Source: Verrucomicrobiota bacterium (GTDB lineage: Bacteria; Verrucomicrobiota; Verrucomicrobiia; Limisphaerales; UBA11358). Taken from it: a stretch of 64,000 nt of DNA. The notes under the pieces are model-generated. The model did not search any database. It saw only the letters and a list, made by a program, of their open reading frames with translations, and was not told the DNA's origin. Below, piece by piece: positions 35,866 through 45,408 of this stretch (the stretch's first letter is position 1; each line of letters starts with the position of its first letter). The stretch is taken from NCBI GenBank assembly GCA_049510295.1, contig JBEKZC010000002.1, positions 57,797-121,796 of the forward strand, read 5' to 3'. The position numbers and the translations under genes are program-made.

Positions 35866-36695
35866 CCACCATGCTCATACATCCCATCCTCGCCTCCGGC
35901 GCGTTGCAGTTCGCCTTCGAAAAGGCCACGATCGAAGGCAAAATCACCATCGGTTCGCTGTTCATCCTGTCCATGTTCAGTTGGACGATCATCATCACCA
36001 AGTTTCGCCAGCTTTCCATCGCGCGGCGGGCGGCCAAAAAATTCTTCGCCGCCTACAGCGCCACGCGCGATCCACTGGACATCAAACGCAAGGGCGAGAA
36101 CTACGAAGGCGCGCCCGCTTACCAGCTTTACAGCCGCGCGGCCGACGAGCTGGATTACCACCTCAAGCACAACCCCGTCATCGTGAAGGACCGGCGCCGC
36201 ATCAGCGCCGCGTCGTTTGAAGCCGTGAAGGTGACGCTGGAGGAAGCCGCCGCCACCGAGGCCATGGCCTTGGAAAAGGGCATGATCGTGCTGTCCACGG
36301 CCGTGGCCGGCGGGCCGTTCATCGGTCTGCTCGGCACGGTTTGGGGCGTCATGGAAACGTTTGCCGGCATTGCCCGGGCCAATGCCGCGAGTCTTACCGC
36401 CATGGCGCCCGGTGTGGCCGGCGCGTTGATTGCCACGGTCACCGGCCTGCTCGTCGCCATTCCCGCCATGTTCGCCTACAACTTCATGGTCACCACCATC
36501 CGCCACATCACGCAGGAACTGGACGGTTACGCCACCCGTTACGCCACCCAGATTGAACATGCCTACGTGGACAACCGCCCCCTCTCGGAGGAACTCAAGC
36601 AGGCCAACGAAGCGCTGGCCGTGAGCCTGGTCGCCGCCCTCAAGGGCGACGAGAATGTGTTGCGCAACACGCCGGTGTTCGCCGCCGAACGTTAA
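35862..36695 (+). CDS. exbB: MotA/TolQ/ExbB proton channel subunit
   Basis: GPFIGLLGTVWGVM, APGVAGALIATVTGLLVAIPA. Confidence 0.9.
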   Translation: MTTMLIHPILASGALQFAFEKATIEGKITIGSLFILSMFSWTIIITKFRQLSIARRAAKKFFAAYSATRDPLDIKRKGENYEGAPAYQLYSRAADELDYHLKHNPVIVKDRRRISAASFEAVKVTLEEAAATEAMALEKGMIVLSTAVAGGPFIGLLGTVWGVMETFAGIARANAASLTAMAPGVAGALIATVTGLLVAIPAMFAYNFMVTTIRHITQELDGYATRYATQIEHAYVDNRPLSEELKQANEALAVSLVAALKGDENVLRNTPVFAAER

Positions 36696-36707
36696 GGCCG
36701 TCGTGCC

Positions 36708-37121
36708 ATGAAGAAATGTTCCCATTCCGAGCACGAAACGCTCACGCAGTTGAACATCACGCCGTTGCTCGACCTGGCGTTCGTGTTGCTGGTCATTTTC
36801 ATCATCACCACCACACCCATTGTGAATGACCTTGATCTGAACCTGCCGACGGCGGCGAGGCACCAGAAAGACCCGCCGCGCAAGGCCAATTACATTTCCG
36901 TTCAGGCCGACGGGAAAATTTATTTGAATACCAAGAAGGTGGGCATAAGCGACCTGTTGCAAACGCTCGTGGGCCTGCGCATGGACGACCCGGACTTGAA
37001 CATCGTCGTGCGCGGCGACGGCAAGACGAAATACCGGCAGATTCGCGCTGTGCTCGACGCCTGCCAGCAGGCCAACGTCATGAAAGTGGACCTGGCCACC
37101 GAACCCGCCGGCCAGTTTTAA
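36708..37121 (+). CDS. exbD: ExbD/TolR subunit
   Basis: LNITPLLDLAFVLLVIFII, VVRGD. Confidence 0.9.
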   Translation: MKKCSHSEHETLTQLNITPLLDLAFVLLVIFIITTTPIVNDLDLNLPTAARHQKDPPRKANYISVQADGKIYLNTKKVGISDLLQTLVGLRMDDPDLNIVVRGDGKTKYRQIRAVLDACQQANVMKVDLATEPAGQF

Positions 37122-37122
37122 C

Positions 37123-37800
37123 ATGCAACCGCAAACCCAGCCGCGCAAACCGCGCAACTCGTCGAAGGTGAACCTGGCCATCTCGGTCACCTTCCACGTG
37201 GTGCTGGTGGTGGCGTTGTTTTACCTGGCGGCCCGCCAAGGGTTTCTGGGCAAGCAACTTCAGAAAATCTCGGTGGAAATGGTGAGGGAAAAACCGCCGG
37301 AAAAACCCAAGGAACCTGAAAAACCGAAAGTCGAGCCGCCCAAGGTGGAAACGCCGAAGGTCGAAACCCCCAAGATGGTCGAAATGCCCGCGCCCCAGCC
37401 GACGGCCGTGGCGGCGGTCACCGCGCCGCCGGCCATCGCGCCGCCGTCGGTCGATCTGCCGTCGTTTGAATTCGAAGGCGGCAAGGCGGTCGAGACCAGC
37501 TCCGATGCGGTGCAGGTTTACAAAGGTTACCTGGAATATGCGTTGCGGTCTAAATGGAACCGGCCGGATGACCGGCCGGATGACAATTACGTGGCCGAGG
37601 TGGAAGTGGCGGTCAACCGCACGGGCGACGTCAGCGACCCAGCCTGGAGAAAAGGCTCCGGCGACCCGAAATGGGACGAGTCCGTGAAAAAGGTGTTTGC
37701 CACGGTCAGCCGCCTTGACCATCCGCCGCCGACGAATTTCCCGCCGCGGGTGACCATCCGGTTTGACGTGCAGGAGGAAACCGAACCCGTGTTGCAATGA
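37123..37800 (+). CDS. TonB/TolA-like energy transducer
   Basis: N-terminal TM with SxxxH, Pro/Lys/Glu linker, C-terminal KGSGDPKWDESV domain. Confidence 0.82.
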   Translation: MQPQTQPRKPRNSSKVNLAISVTFHVVLVVALFYLAARQGFLGKQLQKISVEMVREKPPEKPKEPEKPKVEPPKVETPKVETPKMVEMPAPQPTAVAAVTAPPAIAPPSVDLPSFEFEGGKAVETSSDAVQVYKGYLEYALRSKWNRPDDRPDDNYVAEVEVAVNRTGDVSDPAWRKGSGDPKWDESVKKVFATVSRLDHPPPTNFPPRVTIRFDVQEETEPVLQ

Positions 37801-38216
37801 AAAAGATCTCCCATTCCCATCATAGCACCCTGAACGAGCTGAACATCACGCCGCTGCTGGACCTGGTGTTTGTTTTGCTGGTGATCTTCATCATCACCAC
37901 GCCGCAGTTGATGAACAACCTGGAAATGAACCTGCCGTCGGGCAAACCACCGCCGAAGAAGGCGGCTGAGCCGAAGATCAACAAGATCGCGGTGGACGGG
38001 CGGGGGCAAATCACCTTCAACAGCGAAGTGGTCACAGTGACGCAATTAAAAGAAACGCTGCAGCAACTCAAGGCGGCCGATCCCGGACTCAGCGTGGTGG
38101 TGAAAGGCGCCGACGAGGTGGATTACCAGTTCATGGTCAACGTTCTGGATGTCCTCCGCCAGCTCGACATCACCAAGGTGGGTTTGGCGACGGAAGCCGG
38201 CGCGACTAACCCATAA
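37797..38216 (+). CDS. exbD: Second ExbD/TolR subunit
   Basis: LNITPLLDLVFVLLVIFII. Confidence 0.9.
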   Translation: MKKISHSHHSTLNELNITPLLDLVFVLLVIFIITTPQLMNNLEMNLPSGKPPPKKAAEPKINKIAVDGRGQITFNSEVVTVTQLKETLQQLKAADPGLSVVVKGADEVDYQFMVNVLDVLRQLDITKVGLATEAGATNP

Positions 38217-38414
38217 AAAATTTGTTCCGACTGGACCGGGATTCCGCCAATGCCGGCGTGCGCGACGCCTTTTGCCTCAACACCTTTCCACCATCCCAAA
38301 GTCATGGCAACGGCCAGCAACCACCCGCGCCCGCCCCGATGCCCGCGCCGCAGGCCGCCAAAGCGTAAATCATTTGTTCGAGCGGTTGATGAAAATATGA
38401 ACGATGAGACAACG

Positions 38415-38555
38415 AGCGGCCTCCGGCAACGGGGGCCGCTTTTTGTAACAAAAAAGTTCTAGACACGATTTTGAAATCGGCGTATGACAGCAACCAGTAG
38501 GGCAATCTGGGCTTCAAAGTGCCAAGTTTGTTTCGGTTGTTGTTTTTGAATCGGG
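38415..38555 (+). repeat. Terminator-plus-promoter repeat, copy A
   Basis: AGCGGCCTCCG-GCAA-CGGGGGCCGCT-TTTT, then TAGACA-N17-TATGAC and GGGCTTCAAAGTGCCA; related copies at 41800-41911 and 42637-42729. Confidence 0.75.
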
Positions 38556-38656
38556 AGATTACCTGTCACGTTAAAATTAAAAAAGGACAACTATAAACAT
38601 CATTTGGAGATTTATGCCAAATCCGTGAACCATTAACGACCGACTACGCAAAACCT

Positions 38657-38824
38657 ATGGCAAAAATTGATGCGGATGATCTGCGTCTAAACTACAACCC
38701 GGAACAGCCGCAGGAACGATTCAAAGCTGCGGGCGTCAGAGCTGCGCTCGTGGCAAAAGCAAGCGACCGTATTCCCAGTCCGGTCCCTTGGCCTGCCGCC
38801 AGCAAACCAACGCCAAACCGGTAA
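38657..38824 (+). CDS. 55-aa peptide (below the ORF-track cutoff)
   Basis: MAKIDADDLRLNYNPEQPQERFKAAGVRAALVAKASDRIPSPVPWPAASKPTPNR*, ending 16 nt before the next gene. Confidence 0.5.
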   Translation: MAKIDADDLRLNYNPEQPQERFKAAGVRAALVAKASDRIPSPVPWPAASKPTPNR

Positions 38825-38840
38825 ATGAAAGGGTTATTTT

Positions 38841-39383
38841 ATGGAAGGAAGACCGTCTAAAATTGCTTTGCTGATCGGCATTCTTGGGCTTCTCACCGCG
38901 CTGGTCACAAACCTTGATAAAATACAGGAGCTTGTTGACTCCTTTCGCTCGCCTACCGAGCCCGTCATTTCCGGCGAGTGGACAGGTGTGTTTAAGGAAT
39001 ACTGGCCTGAAACGCCGGACTCCTTACATGGCGCAACAGAAACGATAACGTTTACTTGTGACAAGCACAACAAAGTTGCGGCAAAAATTGGAACACCAGT
39101 TGGTGAAAAGCGGCATTGGAAAGCCGTTGGCGAGATTGTCGGGTCACAGAACAATCGGATGTTTGTAATGTATTATGTCAGCACCGACCCGGAGCGTCCC
39201 ATGAGCAACGGTGCGTATGTTCTTAACTATGATGTCACCAAGAACTCATACTTCGGTTATCGGATGGGATATGACAAGGACCTTAAAAAAATTGTCGCCT
39301 TTCCGTATATTCTTACCCTGGAGAACTCCGCTACGGCTCAAGAAAGTTATAAGGACTATCTAAATAAGCCTGCGCTTTATTGA
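38841..39383 (+). CDS. Single-TM protein with a beta-strand-rich (lipocalin/Cap15-like) domain
   Basis: TM helix, then ISGEWTG and about 8 predicted strands (FVMYYVS, GAYVLNY, YFGYRMG); lower GC. Confidence 0.6.
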   Translation: MEGRPSKIALLIGILGLLTALVTNLDKIQELVDSFRSPTEPVISGEWTGVFKEYWPETPDSLHGATETITFTCDKHNKVAAKIGTPVGEKRHWKAVGEIVGSQNNRMFVMYYVSTDPERPMSNGAYVLNYDVTKNSYFGYRMGYDKDLKKIVAFPYILTLENSATAQESYKDYLNKPALY

Positions 39384-39447
39384 ACTTTCGCCGCCCGCAT
39401 CATCTGCAGCGCCTCAACAATCGTCAAAATTGAAAATAAATTAGATT

Positions 39448-40431
39448 ATGGAAACAAAAAACAAATCGCTGGCCACCATCAAAGAGGAAATTGGCCGGAA
39501 GCAAAAAGTTCTTGATCAAATTCACGCCGCGCGCCAGGCCGTGCGCGGTTATACCACTGTGCCCGCAGCCGAACGCGGCGCATCGGCCGCACCGTTGCGA
39601 GCCATGCTGGCGGCCGCTCCGGCCAAACGAACCTTCAATCTTCTCGCGCAAGGCGATTCATGGTTCGACTACCCGCCCGGCACGGATTTGATTGATTGCC
39701 TGCACTCCAATCACGGGCACACCATCACCAACATCGCCGTGGCCGGTTCGACGCTGAACGACGAGGCCTACGGCCTGGTGCCGCGCGAGATGTTCGGGCT
39801 GCCATTTGGCCCGCTCCAGTCGGACGATCCTTCACGCATCGCCGAACTCGTTAATCGCATCCAGCAGGACAAGCCGCAGGCATTGCTGCTGTCCGCCGGC
39901 GGCAACGACATTGCAGGCGATGAATTTTTCTCCTTCATCAACAATGCGAAGTCCGGCCTGTCGGCCATCAATCAGGAGGTTCTCGATGGTGTCGTCAACG
40001 GCACGTTCAAGACCGCCTACCAATACCTTATTGACACGGCGTTGCAGGCGGCGGCGACCGCCACTATCACCATGCCCATCTTTACGCACGGTTACGATTA
40101 CCCCTTTCCGGACGGACGCGGTGTGATTTCATTTTTGGGCTGGAAAGTCGGGCCGTGGTTTGACCCGACGTTTAACCAGAAGAATTATCCCAACAACAGC
40201 GCCGCCGATTGACAGGTGCGCCACGACATTACTGCAAAATTCATAGATTCCTTGAATGCCATGCTCAATGGACTCGCATCACAGCCTGCGTATGCCGGGA
40301 AGCTTTTCCATGCGAACCTCACCGGCACGTTGCAGTCCGACGCCGATTGGGCCAACGAACTGCATCCGGGCAACTCCGGCTTCAGCAAGCTGGCGGACAA
40401 AATTGATGCCGCGTTGCAGGCAAACATTTAG
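39448..40431 (+). pseudogene. SGNH/GDSL hydrolase split by a single in-frame TGA
   Basis: GDSWF, SAGGND, HGYDY before the stop at 40210-40212; WANELHP (catalytic His block) continues in the same frame. Confidence 0.85.
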
Positions 40432-40492
40432 TTTCCCACCCAAACCAAACCAATAAACACACAACCAAACCAAAAAACCAAAAGGATCAAAT

Positions 40493-41503
40493 ATGAGCAC
40501 TTCAGGCGTTACTTTGTTCGCTATTAAACTCACTGATCTTCGCAGCGCCAAAAGGGAGTGGTCGGAGCGACTCTTGCACGCTCCGCGGGCCGAGGCCTTC
40601 CGGTCGTTTGCGGCGGCTTCGAGTGTCGCGCCGGATCAAAACGTCGTCGGCGTCGGAATCGGCGAGCAGATTGTGGATGACAAACCGACCGGCATCATGG
40701 CGGTGAAGTTCTTTGTGCGTGTCAAATACCCGGAGCATGAACTCTCGAAGAAGACTTTGCTGCCAAAGAGCATTGATGGCCTGCCCGTTGATGTCGAGGA
40801 GACCGGCTTGTTCCGACGGTTCACTCCCGCCATGCCCAATCCAAAAACGAAGATTCGGCCCGCACAGCCTGGGTGCTCTGTGGGGTATCAGGATCCAAGC
40901 AACCAAATCGTCATGGCCGGGACTTTCGGCGCGGTGGTGAAAGACAACGCAGGGCAGTACATCTTGAGCAACAACCATGTGCTCGCCGACGAGAGTCGTT
41001 TGCCGGCCGGCGCGCCGATTTTCCAGCCCGGATTGCTCGATGGCGGCAATGCGAACACCGACCAGATCGCCGCGCTGACAAGATTCATCGCGCTTCAGGC
41101 TGCGGGGAACAAAGTAGATTGCGCCATTGCCAAGGTAACGGCCAACAATCTTGTCTCCAAAGACGTGCTTCACATCGGCGCATCCACCGGAACGGACGAT
41201 GCGGCCATTGATATGGCGGTTCATAAATTCGGACGGACCACCAGTTACACTGTGGGCCAGGTGAAGAGCATTGATACCGACGTGACGGTTGGTTACGAGA
41301 CCGGCAACTTCACTTTCCAGGAACAGATCATCATCGTGGGAAGCGCCGGACTCCCGTTCAGTGCGGCCGGCGACTCCGGGTCGCTGATCCTGCAACGCGG
41401 CACGAACAAGGCCGTCGGTTTATTGTTCGCCGGTTCCAACACCCATACGATTGCCAATCACATAGGCGATGTTCTCCAGGCTTTGAAGGTGACACTGGCA
41501 TGA
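40493..41503 (+). CDS. Trypsin-fold serine protease, Nal1-like, no signal peptide
   Basis: Triad motifs SNNHV, DCAIA, GDSGS; KFGRTT; N-terminal NVVGVGIG...LPKSIDGLPVDV domain. Confidence 0.85.
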   Translation: MSTSGVTLFAIKLTDLRSAKREWSERLLHAPRAEAFRSFAAASSVAPDQNVVGVGIGEQIVDDKPTGIMAVKFFVRVKYPEHELSKKTLLPKSIDGLPVDVEETGLFRRFTPAMPNPKTKIRPAQPGCSVGYQDPSNQIVMAGTFGAVVKDNAGQYILSNNHVLADESRLPAGAPIFQPGLLDGGNANTDQIAALTRFIALQAAGNKVDCAIAKVTANNLVSKDVLHIGASTGTDDAAIDMAVHKFGRTTSYTVGQVKSIDTDVTVGYETGNFTFQEQIIIVGSAGLPFSAAGDSGSLILQRGTNKAVGLLFAGSNTHTIANHIGDVLQALKVTLA

Positions 41504-41525
41504 TCCTGGGGCATATTGTTCAGCC

Positions 41526-41750
41526 ATGACTTCCGAACAGCAAGCCCGGGAAATAAAACGCAAACACTCTGGGCAGTTGCTCCAGCAGCCCGGAGTGTGC
41601 GGCGTTGGCGTCGAGAAGGATGAAGCCGGTAATTTTGTGCTGGCCATCCATCTCGATGCCAATCAGCCCGACGCCGGCGCGGCGATTCCTGATTCCATTG
41701 AGGGATGTCAGGTTAAGCGGCTCTTCAGTGGTCCCTTCACCAAGCAATAA
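41526..41750 (+). CDS. Stand-alone homologue of the protease N-terminal domain
   Basis: KRKHSGQLL/GVCGVGV/IPDSIEGCQV/SGPF align with protease KREWSERLL/NVVGVGI/LPKSIDGLPV/TGLF. Confidence 0.72.
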   Translation: MTSEQQAREIKRKHSGQLLQQPGVCGVGVEKDEAGNFVLAIHLDANQPDAGAAIPDSIEGCQVKRLFSGPFTKQ

Positions 41751-41799
41751 ACTGCGTTTCATAAAGGCAAAGGATTATTCAAAAATCCAATGGTCGAGA

Positions 41800-41911
41800 G
41801 GCCGCTTTTTAGCAAAAAAAAATGACACTGAAATATGCGTATTCAGCGAACGGTCGGAAAATCCGGGCTTCAAAGTGCCATGTTGTTTCGGCTGTTTCTT
41901 TTGATTCAGGG
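41800..41911 (+). repeat. Terminator-plus-promoter repeat, copy B (left arm and spacer eroded)
   Basis: GGCCGCTTTTT...GCGTATTCAGCGAAC...GGGCTTCAAAGTGCCA...TTGTTTCGG shared with copies A and C. Confidence 0.7.
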
Positions 41912-42008
41912 GTTGTCCACTGCTGTAAAGCCATTCCAAGTGGCTTGAAATCTTGGACGTTAAAAACCTTCACGATAGAAGGCTTAAACTGATTGAAAAA
42001 ATAACCGT

Positions 42009-42620
42009 ATGAAAAACAAAATTAAACTTACTGCCATTCCGATACTCACCGCCACGGCGCTTTCTCTGGTGGGATGCGCGAGCTATACAATCCAGCCCAT
42101 CGCATCAAAAGAACTCAACAAATGGAACGAGGGAAAACTCGACACGGGTTATGTCTTTTATCAACCCGAACTGTATTTTCTTGTGACGTCCACACCTCCC
42201 AAGGCTGCCAAAGACACTGCAATCACAAATGCACCTTCGGTTGATGAAGCCAAAAAAAGTCCCGCCGCTTCCCCAAATGAAGGACCGAGCACCACTTTTA
42301 GTGTGACCCCCATTTATCTGCCGAACCCGGACAAACCGTATCGGGTTACGACCTTTAACTTCCTCGCCAAAAGTGATTTCACCTTCAACTTCAAAGACGG
42401 CTGGCAACTCACTTCTATAGCCGATAAGGCCGATAACAGCGGCATAGCCACCGCGCTGGTCGGGCAAATGAAAACCATATTGGATGCTGTTACGGCCCAG
42501 AACTTAACGTCTGGCTCCGCAAAACCGCTTCCCAAAACATTTCTTTTGCATCCTGAATTTGATGACGCTGGCGTTATCACAAGCTTTACTCCGATTTTCC
42601 TGCCTGATTTAGGCAAATAA
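42009..42620 (+). CDS. Hypothetical lipoprotein
   Basis: Lipobox LVGC; lower GC; lies between repeat copies B and C. Confidence 0.75.
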   Translation: MKNKIKLTAIPILTATALSLVGCASYTIQPIASKELNKWNEGKLDTGYVFYQPELYFLVTSTPPKAAKDTAITNAPSVDEAKKSPAASPNEGPSTTFSVTPIYLPNPDKPYRVTTFNFLAKSDFTFNFKDGWQLTSIADKADNSGIATALVGQMKTILDAVTAQNLTSGSAKPLPKTFLLHPEFDDAGVITSFTPIFLPDLGK

Positions 42621-42636
42621 ATCCGCAAACAAATAA

Positions 42637-42729
42637 CGGCCTCCGGCAACGGGGGCCGCTTTTTGTCAAAAATTCTCGACACGGTTTTGAAATGGGCGTA
42701 TTCAGCGAACAGTTGGAAAATCCGGGCTT
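42637..42729 (+). repeat. Terminator-plus-promoter repeat, copy C
   Basis: CGGCCTCCGGCAACGGGGGCCGCTTTTT identical to copy A; TCGACA-N17-TATTCA. Confidence 0.75.
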
Positions 42730-42927
42730 TATGTCACGCAAAGAAATTCCTGATGTTGATGAGGCAGGCGACGTGAGGATGCTCTGACTGGTTTGTGTCT
42801 GATGTTTCGGTTCTGGGACCCGGAAAAATTTGAGCCTTGGCCAAATTGCTGAAGTAACGCCAAATCAAAGTCGCTTCATCGCGTCCTGCAAACCCGCAGC
42901 ACAAGCTTCAAACCCGCACGCGTTTCG

Positions 42928-43608
42928 TTACGCGCCGGTCGGGGGCGCGAGCTGGCTTTTCATGCCGGTGTGCCGGATGTCCTGCGCTTCGCAGAGATAA
43001 ACGACGTCCTCCGCCACGTTCGTTGCGTGGTCGGCGATGCGTTCGATGCTTTTGGAAACCACCATCAGGTGGAGGCAGCGCCCGATCGTGTCCGGGTTTT
43101 CGACCATGTGCTGCACGAGGGCGTTGTGGATTTGTTTGTTGAGCGCGTCCACCTCCTTGTCGCGCGGAATCAAGGCGCGGGCGGCGGCGGGATCATTGTT
43201 CACAAACGCGTCGAGCGCGCCCTTGAGCATGTTGAGCGCGAGGCCGGTCATGCGCGGCAGGTCGAGGACGATTTTCACCGGGGCTTCCTGTGACAGGTCG
43301 CGGGCGCGCTTGGCGATTTTGGTGGCTTCGTCGCCAATACGTTCGAGGTTCTGGGAAATTTTCATCGCCGTGGTGACCAGACGCAAATTGCTGGCGAGCG
43401 GCGCCTTGGTGAGCAACTGGATGACCAGTTCGTCAATCTCCACTTCGAACTGGTCAATGACACGGTCGTCCTCCTTCACGCGCAGGGCGAGGTCGCGGTC
43501 GCGTTGGGTGAGCGCCTGGAGCGCCTGGTTCACCGCCGTCTCGGCGTGGCTCGCCATCGTCAGCAGTTTTTGCTTCAGAACGTCCAGCTCCATGTCGAAA
43601 TGTTCCAT
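42928..43608 (-). CDS. phoU: Phosphate signalling protein
   Basis: LERIGDEA and IERIADHATNVAEDV; start reset to MEHFDMEL because the longer ORF runs through a hexamer repeat. Confidence 0.95.
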   Translation of the reverse strand: MEHFDMELDVLKQKLLTMASHAETAVNQALQALTQRDRDLALRVKEDDRVIDQFEVEIDELVIQLLTKAPLASNLRLVTTAMKISQNLERIGDEATKIAKRARDLSQEAPVKIVLDLPRMTGLALNMLKGALDAFVNNDPAAARALIPRDKEVDALNKQIHNALVQHMVENPDTIGRCLHLMVVSKSIERIADHATNVAEDVVYLCEAQDIRHTGMKSQLAPPTGA

Positions 43609-43623
43609 AATCTTTCTCTTTCT

Positions 43624-43732
43624 CTTAATCTTAATCTTAATCTTAATCTTTCTCTTAATCCTCATCCCACTTCATTGCCGGCGGCTGCAAATGGCAGATT
43701 AAGATTAGGATTAAGATCAAGATTAAGGATAT
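43624..43732. repeat. Inverted hexamer tandem repeats (CTTAAT)n / (GATTAA/G)n
   Basis: Directly visible between pstB and phoU. Confidence 0.8.
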
Positions 43733-44547
43733 TATCCGAACCGGCCGGTCACATAATCTTCCGTTTGTTTCTTCGCCGGGCTGGTGAAAATCTTCCTGGT
43801 CACATCGAATTCCACCAGGTCGCCCAGATAAAAGAACGCGGTGAAATCCGACATGCGCGCAGCCTGCTGCATGTTGTGCGTGACGATGACAATCGTGTAA
43901 TCTTTTTTCAACTCCAGAATCAAGTCCTCGATTTTCGAGGTGGCCAGGGGGTCGAGCGCCGAGGCCGGTTCGTCCATGAGCAGCACTTCCGGCTGCACGG
44001 CGAGCGCGCGCGCAATGCACAGGCGCTGCTGCTGGCCCCCCGAAAGGCTGATGGCCGGGGCGTTCAGGCGGTCTTTGACCTCGTCCCAAAGCGCGGCCAT
44101 GCGCAGCGATTGCTCCGTGCGTTCAACCAGCAGCTTGCGGTCGCGCAGGCCGTTTAAACGCAGGCCGACCGTGACGTTGTCGCTGATGGACATCGTCGGG
44201 AACGGATTCGATTTTTGGAACACCATGCCGACGCGGCGACGGACGATGACCGGCTCAATGCCGGCCGCGTAAATGTCGTCGCCGAACAGGCGGATTTCGC
44301 CGGTCATCCGCGCTTCGGGCACGAGTTCGTGCATCCGGTTGAGCGCGCGCAAAAACGTGGATTTGCCGCAGCCGCTGGGACCGATGATGGCGGTGACGGC
44401 CCGGGCGGCGATGTCGAGCGAGACGCTCTTGAGCACGTGATTATCGCCGAAGAAGACCGAGAGATTGCGCACGGTCAACGCGGTAGCGTTCACGGCGATT
44501 GGTGGCGTTGGTGCGGTCACAACCATATTGTTTGCGATGGCGGCCAT
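43732..44547 (-). CDS. pstB: Phosphate ABC transporter ATPase
   Basis: [41 protein letters not shown]. Confidence 0.97.
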
Positions 44548-44553
44548 GGGAAA

Positions 44554-45408
44554 TCAAGCCTTGCGTTGGAACCGGTCGCGCGTGAGCACGCGCACCCCGG
44601 CGTTGACGAACAAAACCAGCAGAAGCAGTACCAATGCGCCCGCCCACGCCTGCCGGTGCTGGTCGTCGTAAGGCCCAATCGCATAAATAAAAATTTGCAG
44701 CGGCAGGGCGGAGATGGGGTCGGTCAGACTGTGCGCCCAATACTGGTTGCCCAAGGCGGTGAACAGCAGCGGAGCGGTCTCGCCCGCCACGCGCGCCAGC
44801 GCGAGCAGGACGCCGGTGACGATGCCTTTGAGCGCGGTGCGCATGACGATTTGAACAATGGTGCGCCATTTGGCGATGCCCAGCGCGAACGCGGCTTCGC
44901 GGTAACCGTTGGGCACGAGCTGCAACACCTCCTCGGTCGTCCGCATCACGAGCGGAATCATCATCATGCCGAGCACAACGCCGCCGGCCAGCGCGGAAAA
45001 GCCGGGTAGATGCGGCACGACAAGCAATCCACAAACGACGATGCCCCAAGTGATGGACGGCACGCCATTGAGAACGTCCGCCGCGAAACGGACCCACCAG
45101 TTGAGGCGTGACGAACCGTATTCGGAAAGAAACACGCCGCCGAGCACACCAATGGGCACGCCGAGCAGGGCGGCCTGGCCCAGCAAAATGAACGTGCCGA
45201 CGATGGCATTGGCCATGCCCCCGCCGGTTACGCCGGCGGGTTTCGGCAATTGGGTGAAGAAAGCCCAGTTCATCGAACTGAAGCCCTCCTTTACCAAGTG
45301 ATAAAAGACCAACACCAGCGGCGCGACGACCAGGATCGCACACGTGAACGTGACCGCCTGCATCAAGGCATTCTTGAACTTGCGCCAGTTGTGGTTGGGG
45401 GCGGTCAT
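44554..45408 (-). CDS. pstA: Phosphate ABC transporter permease
   Basis: GVPSI, REAAFALG, ARVAGETAPLL. Confidence 0.95.
   Translation of the reverse strand: MTAPNHNWRKFKNALMQAVTFTCAILVVAPLVLVFYHLVKEGFSSMNWAFFTQLPKPAGVTGGGMANAIVGTFILLGQAALLGVPIGVLGGVFLSEYGSSRLNWWVRFAADVLNGVPSITWGIVVCGLLVVPHLPGFSALAGGVVLGMMMIPLVMRTTEEVLQLVPNGYREAAFALGIAKWRTIVQIVMRTALKGIVTGVLLALARVAGETAPLLFTALGNQYWAHSLTDPISALPLQIFIYAIGPYDDQHRQAWAGALVLLLLVLFVNAGVRVLTRDRFQRKA

What the first reader, a model, noticed from the sequence alone, without database searches (positions are those of the whole stretch)
38657..41750. Candidate protease-triggered conflict or anti-phage system
Seen: compact co-oriented unit of peptide, TM plus beta-rich protein, SGNH hydrolase, Nal1-like protease and a free copy of the protease N-domain; the enzymes lack signal peptides. 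Three products share A-x-x-hydrophobic-R-[AS]-x-[LA]-[AV]-A: AAGVRAALVA (peptide), AAPLRAMLAA (hydrolase, between an N-terminal helix and the catalytic domain) and AEAFRSFAAA (protease, in a loop absent from the free N-domain copy). Established: protease-activated effectors, lipases and TM beta-barrel effectors occur in bacterial defence. Inference: a zymogen cascade in which cleavage unmasks a lipase, with the loop-less copy as an uncleavable inhibitor and the peptide as decoy or trigger. The motif is Ala-rich, so chance similarity is possible.
Basis: partly seen in the sequence, partly recalled or inferred. Interest (0 to 1): 0.8.

Follow-up and report, generated by a model that had tools for sequence, protein, structure and literature searches.

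The report
Protease with free prodomain-like partner
A small acquired gene islet holds one intact, widely conserved pair, a plant-NAL1-like serine protease and a 74-residue copy of its own front domain that probably plugs its active site, next to decayed remains of enzymes that sometimes travel with that pair.

Summary
The ORFs are real, but they are not a working five-gene unit. The segment at about 38243-42808 is an insertion: in two same-genus genomes exbD abuts phoU.

- **Peptide:** the 55-codon ORF is the N-terminal stub of a ~375-aa PNP_UDP-like gene.
- **TM protein:** it has no relatives.
- **SGNH hydrolase:** a real TGA cuts it at a conserved Leu codon, ahead of the conserved C-terminal block with the invariant His.
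- **Shared motif:** it is at chance level and not conserved.

Only the protease plus the 74-aa protein is conserved. A small ORF lies just downstream in 66 of 80 loci from many phyla. The 74-aa protein is homologous to the protease N-domain minus an 18-residue insert (hhalign 94.9%). Its nearest folds are the alpha-lytic protease Pro region and the NAL1 ABD, both weak matches. A model docks its C-terminal tail in the active-site cleft (ipSAE 0.93, best control 0.02).

PNP-like and SGNH genes recur beside this pair (4 of 80 loci each), so a protease-gated effector system remains possible elsewhere. Here it is degenerate.

The parts
38243..42808 (.). Accessory islet (~4.6 kb) inserted between convergent exbD and phoU
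   Evidence: tblastx against same-genus G011 and G017: homology to exbD ends at window 38228/38242 and resumes at 42921/42809 at adjacent locus positions. GC is 0.47-0.58 in the islet against about 0.60 in the flanks.
38407..38561 (+). R1, first copy of a ~150-nt non-coding element (terminator-like hairpin plus conserved block)
   Evidence: the repeat finder D2-D6, blastn in the genome, nhmmer
38657..38824 (+). pep55: 55-codon stub of a PNP_UDP_1-like gene
   Evidence: 85% DNA identity to the 5' end of a 374-aa ORF in L098, ending at window 38814. That ORF hits PF01048. 45 representatives share this N-terminal segment; of the 10 longer ones scanned, 2 carry PNP_UDP_1.
38841..39383 (+). TM180: one N-terminal TM helix plus a beta-rich domain; orphan
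   Evidence: Only itself among 378 candidates. No Pfam, PADLOC, NCBIfam or PHROG family reaches significance (only chance-level Pfam hits, E 0.02-0.09). The Atlas nearest named cluster is Cap15 at 0.81, a lead only.
39448..40431 (+). SGNH/GDSL hydrolase interrupted by in-frame TGA at 40210-40212 (pseudogene or truncated 254-aa product)
   Evidence: Translation. All 12 aligned homologues are uninterrupted with Leu at that column. The codon is TTG or TTA in 9 homologous loci, TGA is the commonest stop here and no tRNA-Sec was found. Contigs of runs X8, X11 and X16 cover the site with 0 differences.
40493..41503 (+). Nal1-like trypsin-fold serine protease with an N-terminal Pro/ABD-like domain (about 11-113) and putative triad H162, D209, S295
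   Evidence: Pfam, 5966 relatives, invariant columns, NAL1 is the only PDB family hit, E 6e-11, phrog_20754 E 1.5e-63
41526..41750 (+). n74: free-standing paralogue of the protease N-domain, predicted to bind the protease
   Evidence: Downstream ORF in 66 of 80 loci, hhalign, complex model, fold, tail SGPFRK[LFQ] with 31 of 56 ending there
41782..41913 (+). R2, second copy of the non-coding element
42009..42620 (+). Lipoprotein-like ORF (lipobox LVGC by eye), the second 'cassette' of the islet
   Evidence: ORF. 41% paralogue on contig C29. A relative lies upstream of SGNH in L122, E 2.5e-8.
42626..42772 (+). R3, third copy of the non-coding element

Best explanation
The interval is part of a horizontally acquired, partly decayed islet, not a working five-gene cascade. 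Its one conserved functional unit is a two-gene module.

The first gene is a cytoplasmic NAL1-like serine protease whose N-terminal domain resembles the alpha-lytic-protease Pro region, called the ATP-binding domain (ABD) in rice NAL1. The second is a co-transcribed 74-aa free copy of that domain.

Most likely the free copy adds its beta-sheet to the beta-hairpin 258-269 of the protease's C-terminal barrel. It then lays its C-terminal tail (GPFTKQ here; family consensus SGPFRK[L/F/Q], often the very C-terminus) in the substrate cleft. There it sits against strand 311-315, next to S295, H162 and D209, like a cleaved product. That would hold the protease inactive, and/or help it fold, until the partner is removed. 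The same tail motif (GLFRRF110) ends the protease's own N-domain and marks the likely autoprocessing site.

Shown: the homology, the gene linkage, the breaks in the other genes and the insertion. Predicted only: the binding pose. Inferred: inhibition or foldase action, autoprocessing, and what triggers release.

The upstream genes are a PNP-like stub, an orphan TM protein and a TGA-truncated SGNH hydrolase. They are remnants of enzymes that elsewhere sometimes sit beside this module.
For: **Insertion.** exbD abuts phoU in G011 and G017. A protease relative was found in only 2 of 120 other genomes of the genus, at 42% identity, and both have an n74-like ORF downstream.

**Pair.** An n74-like ORF with E < 1e-3 lies just downstream of the protease in 66 of 80 genome loci spanning Verrucomicrobiota, Acidobacteriota, Actinomycetota, Pseudomonadota and others. 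It lies upstream in 2 more. No other neighbour family is shared by more than 7 loci.

**Homology.** hhalign 94.9%, E 4.8e-8.

**Fold of n74 (pLDDT 79).** The top five Foldseek PDB rows are the alpha-lytic protease Pro region (E 0.02, prob 0.99, TMq 0.54-0.56). VIA-align gives 2pro_A Z 5.2, NAL1 residues 90-176 Z 4.0/3.8 and 4hlb Z 3.8.

**Complex.** ipSAE is 0.93 in three runs; the best of 3 controls is 0.02. That mark was reached by 58 of 80 solved complexes and 2 of 110 mismatched pairs. The runs agree in 100% of contacts and the partner's pLDDT is at least 92. My own alignments were used, so the calibration holds only roughly. The interface residues include N160, H162, D209, 258-269, 290-295 and 311-315, and n74 residues 24-31 and 68-74.

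**Tail.** 31 of 56 family members end exactly after the FRK[LFQ] column.

**Published parallels.** In alpha-lytic protease the Pro-protease junction lies across the active site and Pro speeds folding (passages of PMC2829044). In NAL1, ABD-SPD contacts build the trimer (section 5 of PMC12012508).

**Decay of the other genes.**
Against: - The binding pose is a model. Solved complexes of like kind exist (alpha-lytic protease with Pro; NAL1 ABD-SPD contacts), so the pass may reflect likeness rather than this pair's behaviour.
- Because n74 is a paralogue of the cis N-domain, the model may have put it where the cis domain, or a neighbouring subunit's domain, really sits.
- The fold matches are weak (Foldseek E 0.02; all Z under 8, a range the tool calls common).
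- My AlphaFold2 model of the protease failed (pLDDT 32 with 13 sequences), so I have no independent view of the cis arrangement.
- Fourteen of 80 loci lack a downstream n74 (four of these have one elsewhere nearby), and 0 of 22 viral relatives have a free copy. The protease can therefore exist without it.
- There are no expression data.
- The recurrence of PNP-like and SGNH genes next to the pair argues that calling them mere passengers may understate a functional link.
Confidence: 0.6

Rival explanations
1. Degenerate member of a real protease-gated effector (conflict or defence) system. In intact relatives the protease, held by n74, is released by a trigger. It then activates or accompanies PNP-like nucleosidase and/or SGNH lipase enzymes that carry N-terminal extensions. 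This window keeps the switch but has lost the effectors.
For: The same families recur together in distant lineages and different orders.
- SGNH-protease-n74 in L122; protease-n74-SGNH in L151 and L173; both nearby in L153. That is 4 of 80 SGNH loci, or 4 of the 50 with at least 1.3 kb of flank on one side.
- A PNP-like gene sits directly upstream of protease-n74 in L057, L061, L049 and L056, 4 of 80 loci.
- In one phylum sample, 2 of the 4 genomes with the PNP-like gene have it beside the protease, out of 251 genomes searched.
- Other SGNH homologues sit beside other proteases: a pepsin-like one in L098 and an astacin+CHAT protein in 5 loci.
- Kaur et al. 2020 describe peptidase-plus-effector conflict systems and small 'trypsin-co-occurring' partner proteins (passages of PMC7159879).
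Against: - 0 of 80 protease loci hold SGNH, and 76 of 80 hold no PNP-like gene, so the pair works without them.
- No PADLOC hit of weight.
- No sensor or NTPase gene was noticed beside the pair; the only shared-neighbour census found no family in more than 7 loci apart from n74, and those families were not annotated.
- In L003 and L005 the pair sits between housekeeping-looking genes shared by both loci, unlike a mobile defence island.
- The proposed cleavage motif fails.
- No cleavage, toxicity or phage data exist.
Confidence: 0.25
2. n74 is a structural subunit or cap of a NAL1-like oligomer rather than an inhibitor. It occupies the SPD surface that a neighbouring subunit's ABD-like domain uses, and so tunes assembly of a protease cage.
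For: In rice NAL1, contacts within a trimer are between the ABD of one subunit and the SPD of another (PMC12012508 section 5). n74 is homologous to that domain. The complex model shows n74 on the SPD.
Against: The modelled contacts include the catalytic residues and the substrate-binding strand, with the C-terminal tail in the cleft, which points to active-site occupation. The conserved C-terminal end point (31 of 56) is hard to explain for a mere cap. The oligomeric state of the bacterial enzyme is unknown.
Confidence: 0.2
3. One reading: a working five-gene zymogen cascade in this genome. The protease cuts at the shared A-x-x-h-R-[AS]-x-[LA]-[AV]-A motif to unmask the lipase, and the peptide acts as decoy or trigger.
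For: The genes are co-oriented and close. The regex is rare in the genome, 6 of 3943 proteins. Protease Arg37 within the motif is invariant.
Against: - The motif similarity is at chance level, is not aligned between families and is not conserved in two of the three families.
- pep55 is a gene stub.
- The SGNH product lacks its conserved C-terminal block with the invariant His.
- TM180 is an orphan.
- The five genes are found together nowhere else.
Confidence: 0.04

Closest known systems
Alpha-lytic protease and its Pro region (PDB 4PRO, 2PRO, 3PRO)
   Same: It is a trypsin-fold protease with an alpha/beta pro-domain. The n74 model's best PDB matches are this Pro region. In the complex model the partner pairs a beta-sheet with a hairpin of the C-terminal barrel and puts its C-terminus in the active site. 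That is what is described for Pro (passages and reference titles in PMC2829044; the details of the hairpin pairing are my recollection of Sauter et al. 1998, which I did not read).
   Different: Alpha-lytic protease is secreted and its Pro is covalently attached and then degraded. Here the enzyme has no signal peptide, keeps one Pro-like domain in cis and has a second one as a separate gene. Sequence similarity to alpha-lytic protease itself was not detected; only NAL1 appeared in the PDB sequence search.
Rice NARROW LEAF 1 (NAL1) protease
   Same: It is the only solved family found by sequence (E 6e-11, with both the N-domain and the catalytic region aligned). NAL1 has an ABD of four strands and a helix before the protease domain, and ABD-SPD contacts between subunits. 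The n74 model aligns to NAL1 residues 90-176 (Z 4.0 and 3.8).
   Different: NAL1 has an extra N-terminal domain and binds ATP in ABD loops. No free ABD-like partner is mentioned in the section I read. The bacterial pair is about 330 + 75 aa. Whether the bacterial domains bind nucleotide is untested.
Yeast Ssy5 (Peptidase S64)
   Same: Pfam S64 is the one family above its cut-off (25.3 against 23.6 bits). From memory, Ssy5 is autoprocessed and its pro-domain stays bound as an inhibitor until a signal removes it. That is the logic proposed here.
   Different: The S64 match covers only residues 218-310. Ssy5 is much larger. The inhibitor there is the enzyme's own pro-domain, not a separate gene.
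Trypsin-co-occurring small proteins (Trypco1/Trypco2) and peptidase-effector conflict systems of Kaur, Burroughs, Iyer and Aravind 2020
   Same: Small uncharacterised proteins encoded next to trypsin-like peptidases. Those systems also use nucleoside phosphorylase superfamily enzymes and peptidases (passages of PMC7159879).
   Different: Those sit in vWA-MoxR/VMAP or STAND ternary systems, and none of those components was recognised by eye in the neighbour ORFs I inspected (not profile-searched). No Pfam family matched more than 2 of 56 n74 members, all at E 0.04 or worse. The paper's supplements, which list the families, were not seen.
Type II toxin-antitoxin pairs and protease-inhibitor pairs
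   Same: Two adjacent co-oriented genes, with the small one predicted to block the enzyme's active site.
   Different: No evidence of toxicity, of a labile partner or of autoregulation. Gene order (enzyme first) and size differ from most classical pairs.

Membership tests
Nal1-like / S64-type trypsin-fold serine protease | Family profile match above the curated cut-off | tested here: met
   PF08192 25.3 bits against a cut-off of 23.6. PF25819 Nal1_C 24.9 against 26.1, just under. Precomputed Nal1_C is present on most relatives. PDB profile search hits only NAL1, E 6e-11.
Nal1-like / S64-type trypsin-fold serine protease | Conserved His-Asp-Ser catalytic residues | tested here: met
   H162, D209 and S295 (in NNHV, VDCA and GDSGS) are invariant in 13 sequences down to 64% identity. 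Their assignment as the triad is by motif and by analogy with NAL1 H234, D291 and S385.
Nal1-like / S64-type trypsin-fold serine protease | ABD-like domain before the protease domain | tested here: inconclusive
   The HMM aligns positions 49-175 to NAL1 78-208 with i-E 0.014. Via n74, Z is 4.0 to NAL1 90-176. My protease model failed.
Alpha-lytic protease Pro-region-like domain (for n74) | Same fold as the Pro region | tested here: inconclusive
   Top five Foldseek rows, E 0.02, prob 0.99, TMq 0.54-0.56. Z 5.2, tied with an unrelated designed protein. All values are in the range the tool calls common.
Alpha-lytic protease Pro-region-like domain (for n74) | C-terminal tail bound in the protease active site; inhibition and foldase activity | not testable with these tools
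   Only a model: ipSAE 0.93, best control 0.02, with tail residues 68-74 against 311-315 and S295. Activity needs a bench test.
Known anti-phage defence systems (PADLOC-DB 2.0.0) | A component matches a defence-system profile | tested here: not met
   Of 6 proteins, 5 had no family. The only hit is SGNH to BrxHII, E 0.0077, 12 bits.
SGNH/GDSL hydrolase (as an active enzyme here) | Blocks I and III (GDS, GGND) present | tested here: met
   GDSWFDYP and SAGGNDIAG are invariant in the family and present before the stop. The weak Pfam GDSL match is E 4e-4 for the truncated part and 7.4e-6 for intact P0121.
SGNH/GDSL hydrolase (as an active enzyme here) | Block V catalytic His in the same polypeptide | tested here: not met
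   The invariant WANELHP lies after the in-frame TGA. TGA is the commonest stop, no tRNA-Sec was found, and homologues have Leu there. The stop is present in three further runs.
PNP_UDP_1 phosphorylase superfamily (for pep55) | Phosphorylase domain present | tested here: not met
   The window keeps only residues 1-51 of the family's N-terminal leader, then NR-stop. The domain is in L098's 374-aa ORF, P0244 and P0276.
Trypco1/Trypco2 (trypsin-co-occurring domains) | Profile match of the small partner | tested here: inconclusive
   No Pfam family matched more than 2 of 56 n74 members, all at E 0.04 or worse. I did not verify that this Pfam copy holds Trypco models.
Cap15-like TM beta-barrel effector (for TM180) | Similarity to the Cap15 receptor domain | tested here: inconclusive
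   The Atlas feature score is 0.81, which the tool says is a lead only. No Pfam or PADLOC hit.

The most novel reading that the evidence does not exclude
The NAL1-like protease and its free Pro/ABD-like partner form a widespread, undescribed cytoplasmic 'protease held by a trans pro-domain' switch. In intact clusters it gates PNP-like nucleosidase and SGNH lipase pro-enzymes, and perhaps other cargo. This would be a new family of protease-triggered conflict or suicide systems in soil bacteria, of which this window holds a decayed example. It would also suggest that the plant NAL1 ABD descends from a bacterial pro-domain.
Probability: 0.2. Interest if true: 0.8.

Novelty: new variant of a known kind. 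Interest (0 to 1): 0.45.

Why it matters
The protease family is large. It is 60-90% identical across phyla. Yet its constant small partner has no Pfam family and I found no description of it in print.

If the partner is a trans-acting pro-domain-like inhibitor or foldase, that gives a simple, testable control mechanism for a cytoplasmic trypsin-fold protease. It also gives a bacterial context for the unusual ABD of the crop-yield protein NAL1.

For the scan, the result shows that a neat-looking five-gene 'system' can be a mosaic of one live module and several dead genes.

Tried and rejected
- **BLASTP of n74 against the protease:** nothing significant; only profiles show the relation.
- **AlphaFold2 of the protease with 13 sequences:** failed (pLDDT 32). 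No fold search was made with it, and the second structure job went to n74.
- **Rfam on 36000-45000:** nothing in the islet except a 23.8-bit RT-15 chance hit.
- **The R element as a structured RNA:** RNAalifold gives -5.4 kcal/mol and one covarying pair, so rejected. The simple promoter scan did not call a promoter in R; my reading of a TCGACA-17-TATTCA promoter there is by eye only.
- **Selenocysteine or recoding at the TGA:** rejected.
- **NCBIfam:** no match approaches its curated cut-off, only chance-level hits at E 0.02-0.2.
- **PHROGs:** nothing for n74, TM180, SGNH, PNP-like or the lipoprotein.
- **Sequencing runs:** no RNA holder listed, so nothing can be said about expression.
- **Viral contigs:** 22 loci hold 32-40% relatives of the protease but no free n74. 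Their role was not followed.
- **Papers:** searches (terms: NARROW LEAF 1 / NAL1, serine protease, bacteria, hexamer, homologs, cyanobacteria, catalytic triad, crystal structure, N-terminal domain) found no paper on bacterial NAL1-like proteases with a small partner. Supplements of PMC7159879 were not seen and may list the family.
- **Shared N-terminal extensions as one adaptor domain (EAD-like) in PNP-like, SGNH and protease families:** rejected by hhalign.


Full report
**What is at the coordinates.**
- a 55-codon ORF (38657-38824);
- a 180-aa protein with one N-terminal hydrophobic helix (38841-39383);
- an SGNH/GDSL-type hydrolase (39448-40212) that continues in frame after a TGA at 40210-40212 to 40431;
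- a 336-aa protease (40493-41503) that hits Peptidase_S64 just above its cut-off and Nal1_C just below it;
- a 74-aa ORF (41526-41750).

Upstream are exbB-exbD-tonB-exbD. Downstream are a lipoprotein-like ORF (42009-42620) and, on the other strand, phoU and pstB.

**The interval is part of an insertion.** In two same-genus genomes (G011 and G017, about 75% DNA identity in tonB/exbD), the end of exbD and the end of phoU lie next to each other. Homology stops at window 38228/38242 and resumes at 42921/42809. So about 38243-42808 is an accessory islet. Its GC is 0.47-0.58 against about 0.60 in the flanks.

Three copies of a ~150-nt non-coding element bound and divide it (R1 38407-38561, R2 41782-41913, R3 42626-42772). 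Each begins with a terminator-like hairpin.

A relative of the protease was found in only 2 of 120 other genomes of the genus, at 42% identity.

**Which genes belong together.** I fetched 80 loci around protease relatives from species genomes of many phyla.
- A small ORF matching an n74 family profile at E < 1e-3 lies just downstream, same strand, in 66 of 80. The typical gap is 3-46 nt.
- Of the other 14 loci, two have it upstream, one has it 3 kb downstream, one has it in an overlapping frame, and one contig ends at the protease.
- No other neighbour family is shared by more than 7 loci.
- Relatives of pep55, TM180 and SGNH occur in 0 of 80.

The conserved unit is therefore the protease plus the small protein, not five genes.

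**The other three genes are broken or alone.**
- *pep55.* It is 85% identical in DNA to the 5' end of a 374-aa ORF in metagenome locus L098, up to window 38814, and then diverges. That ORF and other long relatives carry a PNP_UDP_1 phosphorylase-superfamily domain. A search of 1.84 billion representatives found 45 proteins with this segment, nearly always at the N-terminus. In the window, 51 residues of this leader are followed by Asn-Arg-stop. pep55 is a gene stub.
- *TM180.* It has no relative among 5.8 billion clustered proteins at that tool's sensitivity. Language-model look-alikes are unnamed, and Cap15 at 0.81 is only a lead.
- *SGNH hydrolase.* All 12 aligned relatives (61-90% identical) run uninterrupted to about 325-330 aa and have Leu at the TGA column. 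The codon is TTG in 8 and TTA in 1 homologous loci. TGA is the commonest stop in this genome (1443 of the long ORF calls) and ends the neighbouring protease gene, and ARAGORN finds no tRNA-Sec. Contigs of three other peat runs from different studies cover the site with no difference. The truncated ORF is on record from 19 contigs. The truncation removes the invariant WANELHP block.

**The shared motif.** Three further tests count against it.
- In an unbiased test, the best three-way 10-mer similarity among the five proteins scores 61, and for a different triple. The null from 120 other five-gene windows of the genome is 61.5 +/- 10.5, and 48 of 120 reach 61.
- Family profiles do not align at these segments.
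- In the PNP-like family the 'Arg' position is mostly Glu. In SGNH it is lost in distant members. Only the protease Arg37 is invariant.

I conclude the motif is a chance Ala-rich resemblance.

**The 74-aa protein.** Profile-profile comparison aligns n74 residues 2-74 to protease residues 11-113 at 94.9% probability, E 4.8e-8.

The family has no Pfam model: no family matched more than 2 of 56 members, all at E 0.04 or worse.

Its AlphaFold2 model (pLDDT 79) is a helix followed by three strands.
- The five best Foldseek PDB rows are the Pro region of alpha-lytic protease (E 0.02, prob 0.99).
- An independent aligner gives that Pro region Z 5.2. It gives the ATP-binding domain region of rice NAL1 (residues 90-176) Z 4.0 and 3.8, and an 'alpha-lytic protease prodomain-like protein' Z 3.8.
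- These scores are weak by themselves. They agree, however, with the sequence link of the protease to NAL1, which is the only PDB family found (E 6e-11).

**Predicted binding.** The complex model of protease plus n74 scored ipSAE 0.93 in three runs, against 0.02 for the best of three controls.
- That mark was reached by 58 of 80 solved complexes and 2 of 110 mismatched pairs.
- The runs agree in 100% of contacts, and the partner's pLDDT is at least 92.
- My own alignments were used, so the calibration holds only roughly.

The n74 strand 24-31 pairs with protease hairpin 258-269. The tail 68-74 lies against 311-315 and touches S290-S295, H162 and D209.

The family tail is S-G-P-F-R-K-[L/F/Q], and 31 of 56 members end exactly there. 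The protease's own N-domain ends with GLFRRF110. This mirrors what is written for alpha-lytic protease: the Pro-protease junction lies across the active site and is cut as the enzyme folds, and Pro greatly speeds folding (passages of PMC2829044).

Two caveats apply. Like complexes are solved, so the pass may show likeness only. And the model may have placed n74 where the cis domain, or a neighbouring subunit's domain, sits, as in the NAL1 trimer where ABD contacts SPD (PMC12012508 section 5).

**Recurrent company.** The five genes never recur as a set, but their families do meet.
- Among 80 loci around SGNH relatives, 50 have at least 1.3 kb of flank on one side. Four of the 80 hold protease+n74: L122 in the window's order, L151 and L173 as protease-n74-SGNH, and L153 nearby.
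- A PNP-like gene lies directly upstream of protease-n74 in L057, L061, L049 and L056.
- In 251 genomes of one of those phyla, 4 have the PNP-like gene, and 2 of these 4 have it beside the protease.
- L098, whose SGNH is 90% identical to the window's, reads PNP-like, another TM protein, SGNH, a pepsin-like aspartic protease and then an R element.
- Five other SGNH loci have an astacin+CHAT protein next door.

So a link between these enzymes and proteases is plausible. It resembles the peptidase-effector conflict systems, with small trypsin-co-occurring partners, described by Kaur et al. (passages of PMC7159879). Against this:
- most protease pairs stand without such enzymes;
- no PADLOC model matches;
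- some pairs sit in conserved housekeeping-looking contexts.

**Verdict.** It is wrong on the motif, on the peptide and on a working lipase arm here.

The best-supported reading is a decayed acquired islet. Its live part is a NAL1-like protease controlled, or folded, by a trans-encoded pro-domain-like partner. That is a new variant of the protease/pro-domain principle: widespread, unannotated and easy to test.

Noticed in passing
window 38407-38561, 41782-41913, 42626-42772; L098 5658-5805: A ~150-nt non-coding element, made of a terminator-like hairpin and conserved blocks such as GGCGTAT-TCAGCGAAC and GGGCTTCAAAGTGCC, flanks both 'cassettes' of the islet. In this genome it occurs only here, apart from one weak 51-nt match to R3 on contig C99. 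It was found in 15 of 120 other genomes of the genus at 1-2 copies each. It shows no covarying RNA structure. In other peat runs, contigs leave the window sequence at 38445 and at 42719/42729 inside R copies (loose ends), as if R were a junction between alternative neighbours.
   Followed up: partly
L098 4429-5640: A 403-aa eukaryotic-type (pepsin-like) aspartic protease, PF00026 E 4.9e-26, is encoded directly after an intact SGNH gene on a bacterial-looking metagenome contig, in the place where the window has the serine protease pair.
   Followed up: no
L136 1237-3909 and four further SGNH loci (L139, L143, L163, L172): Large proteins combining an astacin-like metallopeptidase region and a CHAT (caspase-like) domain sit next to distant SGNH homologues on the same strand.
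   Followed up: no
L204-L207 (viral contigs): In four viral loci the protease relative has the same conserved ORFs on both sides. By eye these look like parts of a terminase large subunit, but this was not tested. In general, 22 IMG/VR contigs hold 32-40% relatives without a free n74, and phrog_20754 'protease' matches at E 1.5e-63.
   Followed up: partly
window 43604-43735: A CTTAAT-type hexamer repeat with long inverted arms lies between phoU and pstB (I1-I7). It gives phoU's longest ORF an IKIKIK-rich start and draws weak chance Rfam hits.
   Followed up: no
window 42009-42620; genome contig C29; L122 5239-5982: The lipoprotein-like ORF of the islet has a 41% paralogue elsewhere in the genome. 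It also has a relative directly upstream of the SGNH-protease-n74 set in L122 (E 2.5e-8), so it may travel with these genes.
   Followed up: no
L122 958-2772; L049 1-2208: Near two of the protease sets lie ORFs that look, by eye only, like a large serine recombinase (L122) and a VirB4/TrbE-type transfer ATPase (L049), hinting at mobile-element contexts. This was not profile-tested.
   Followed up: no
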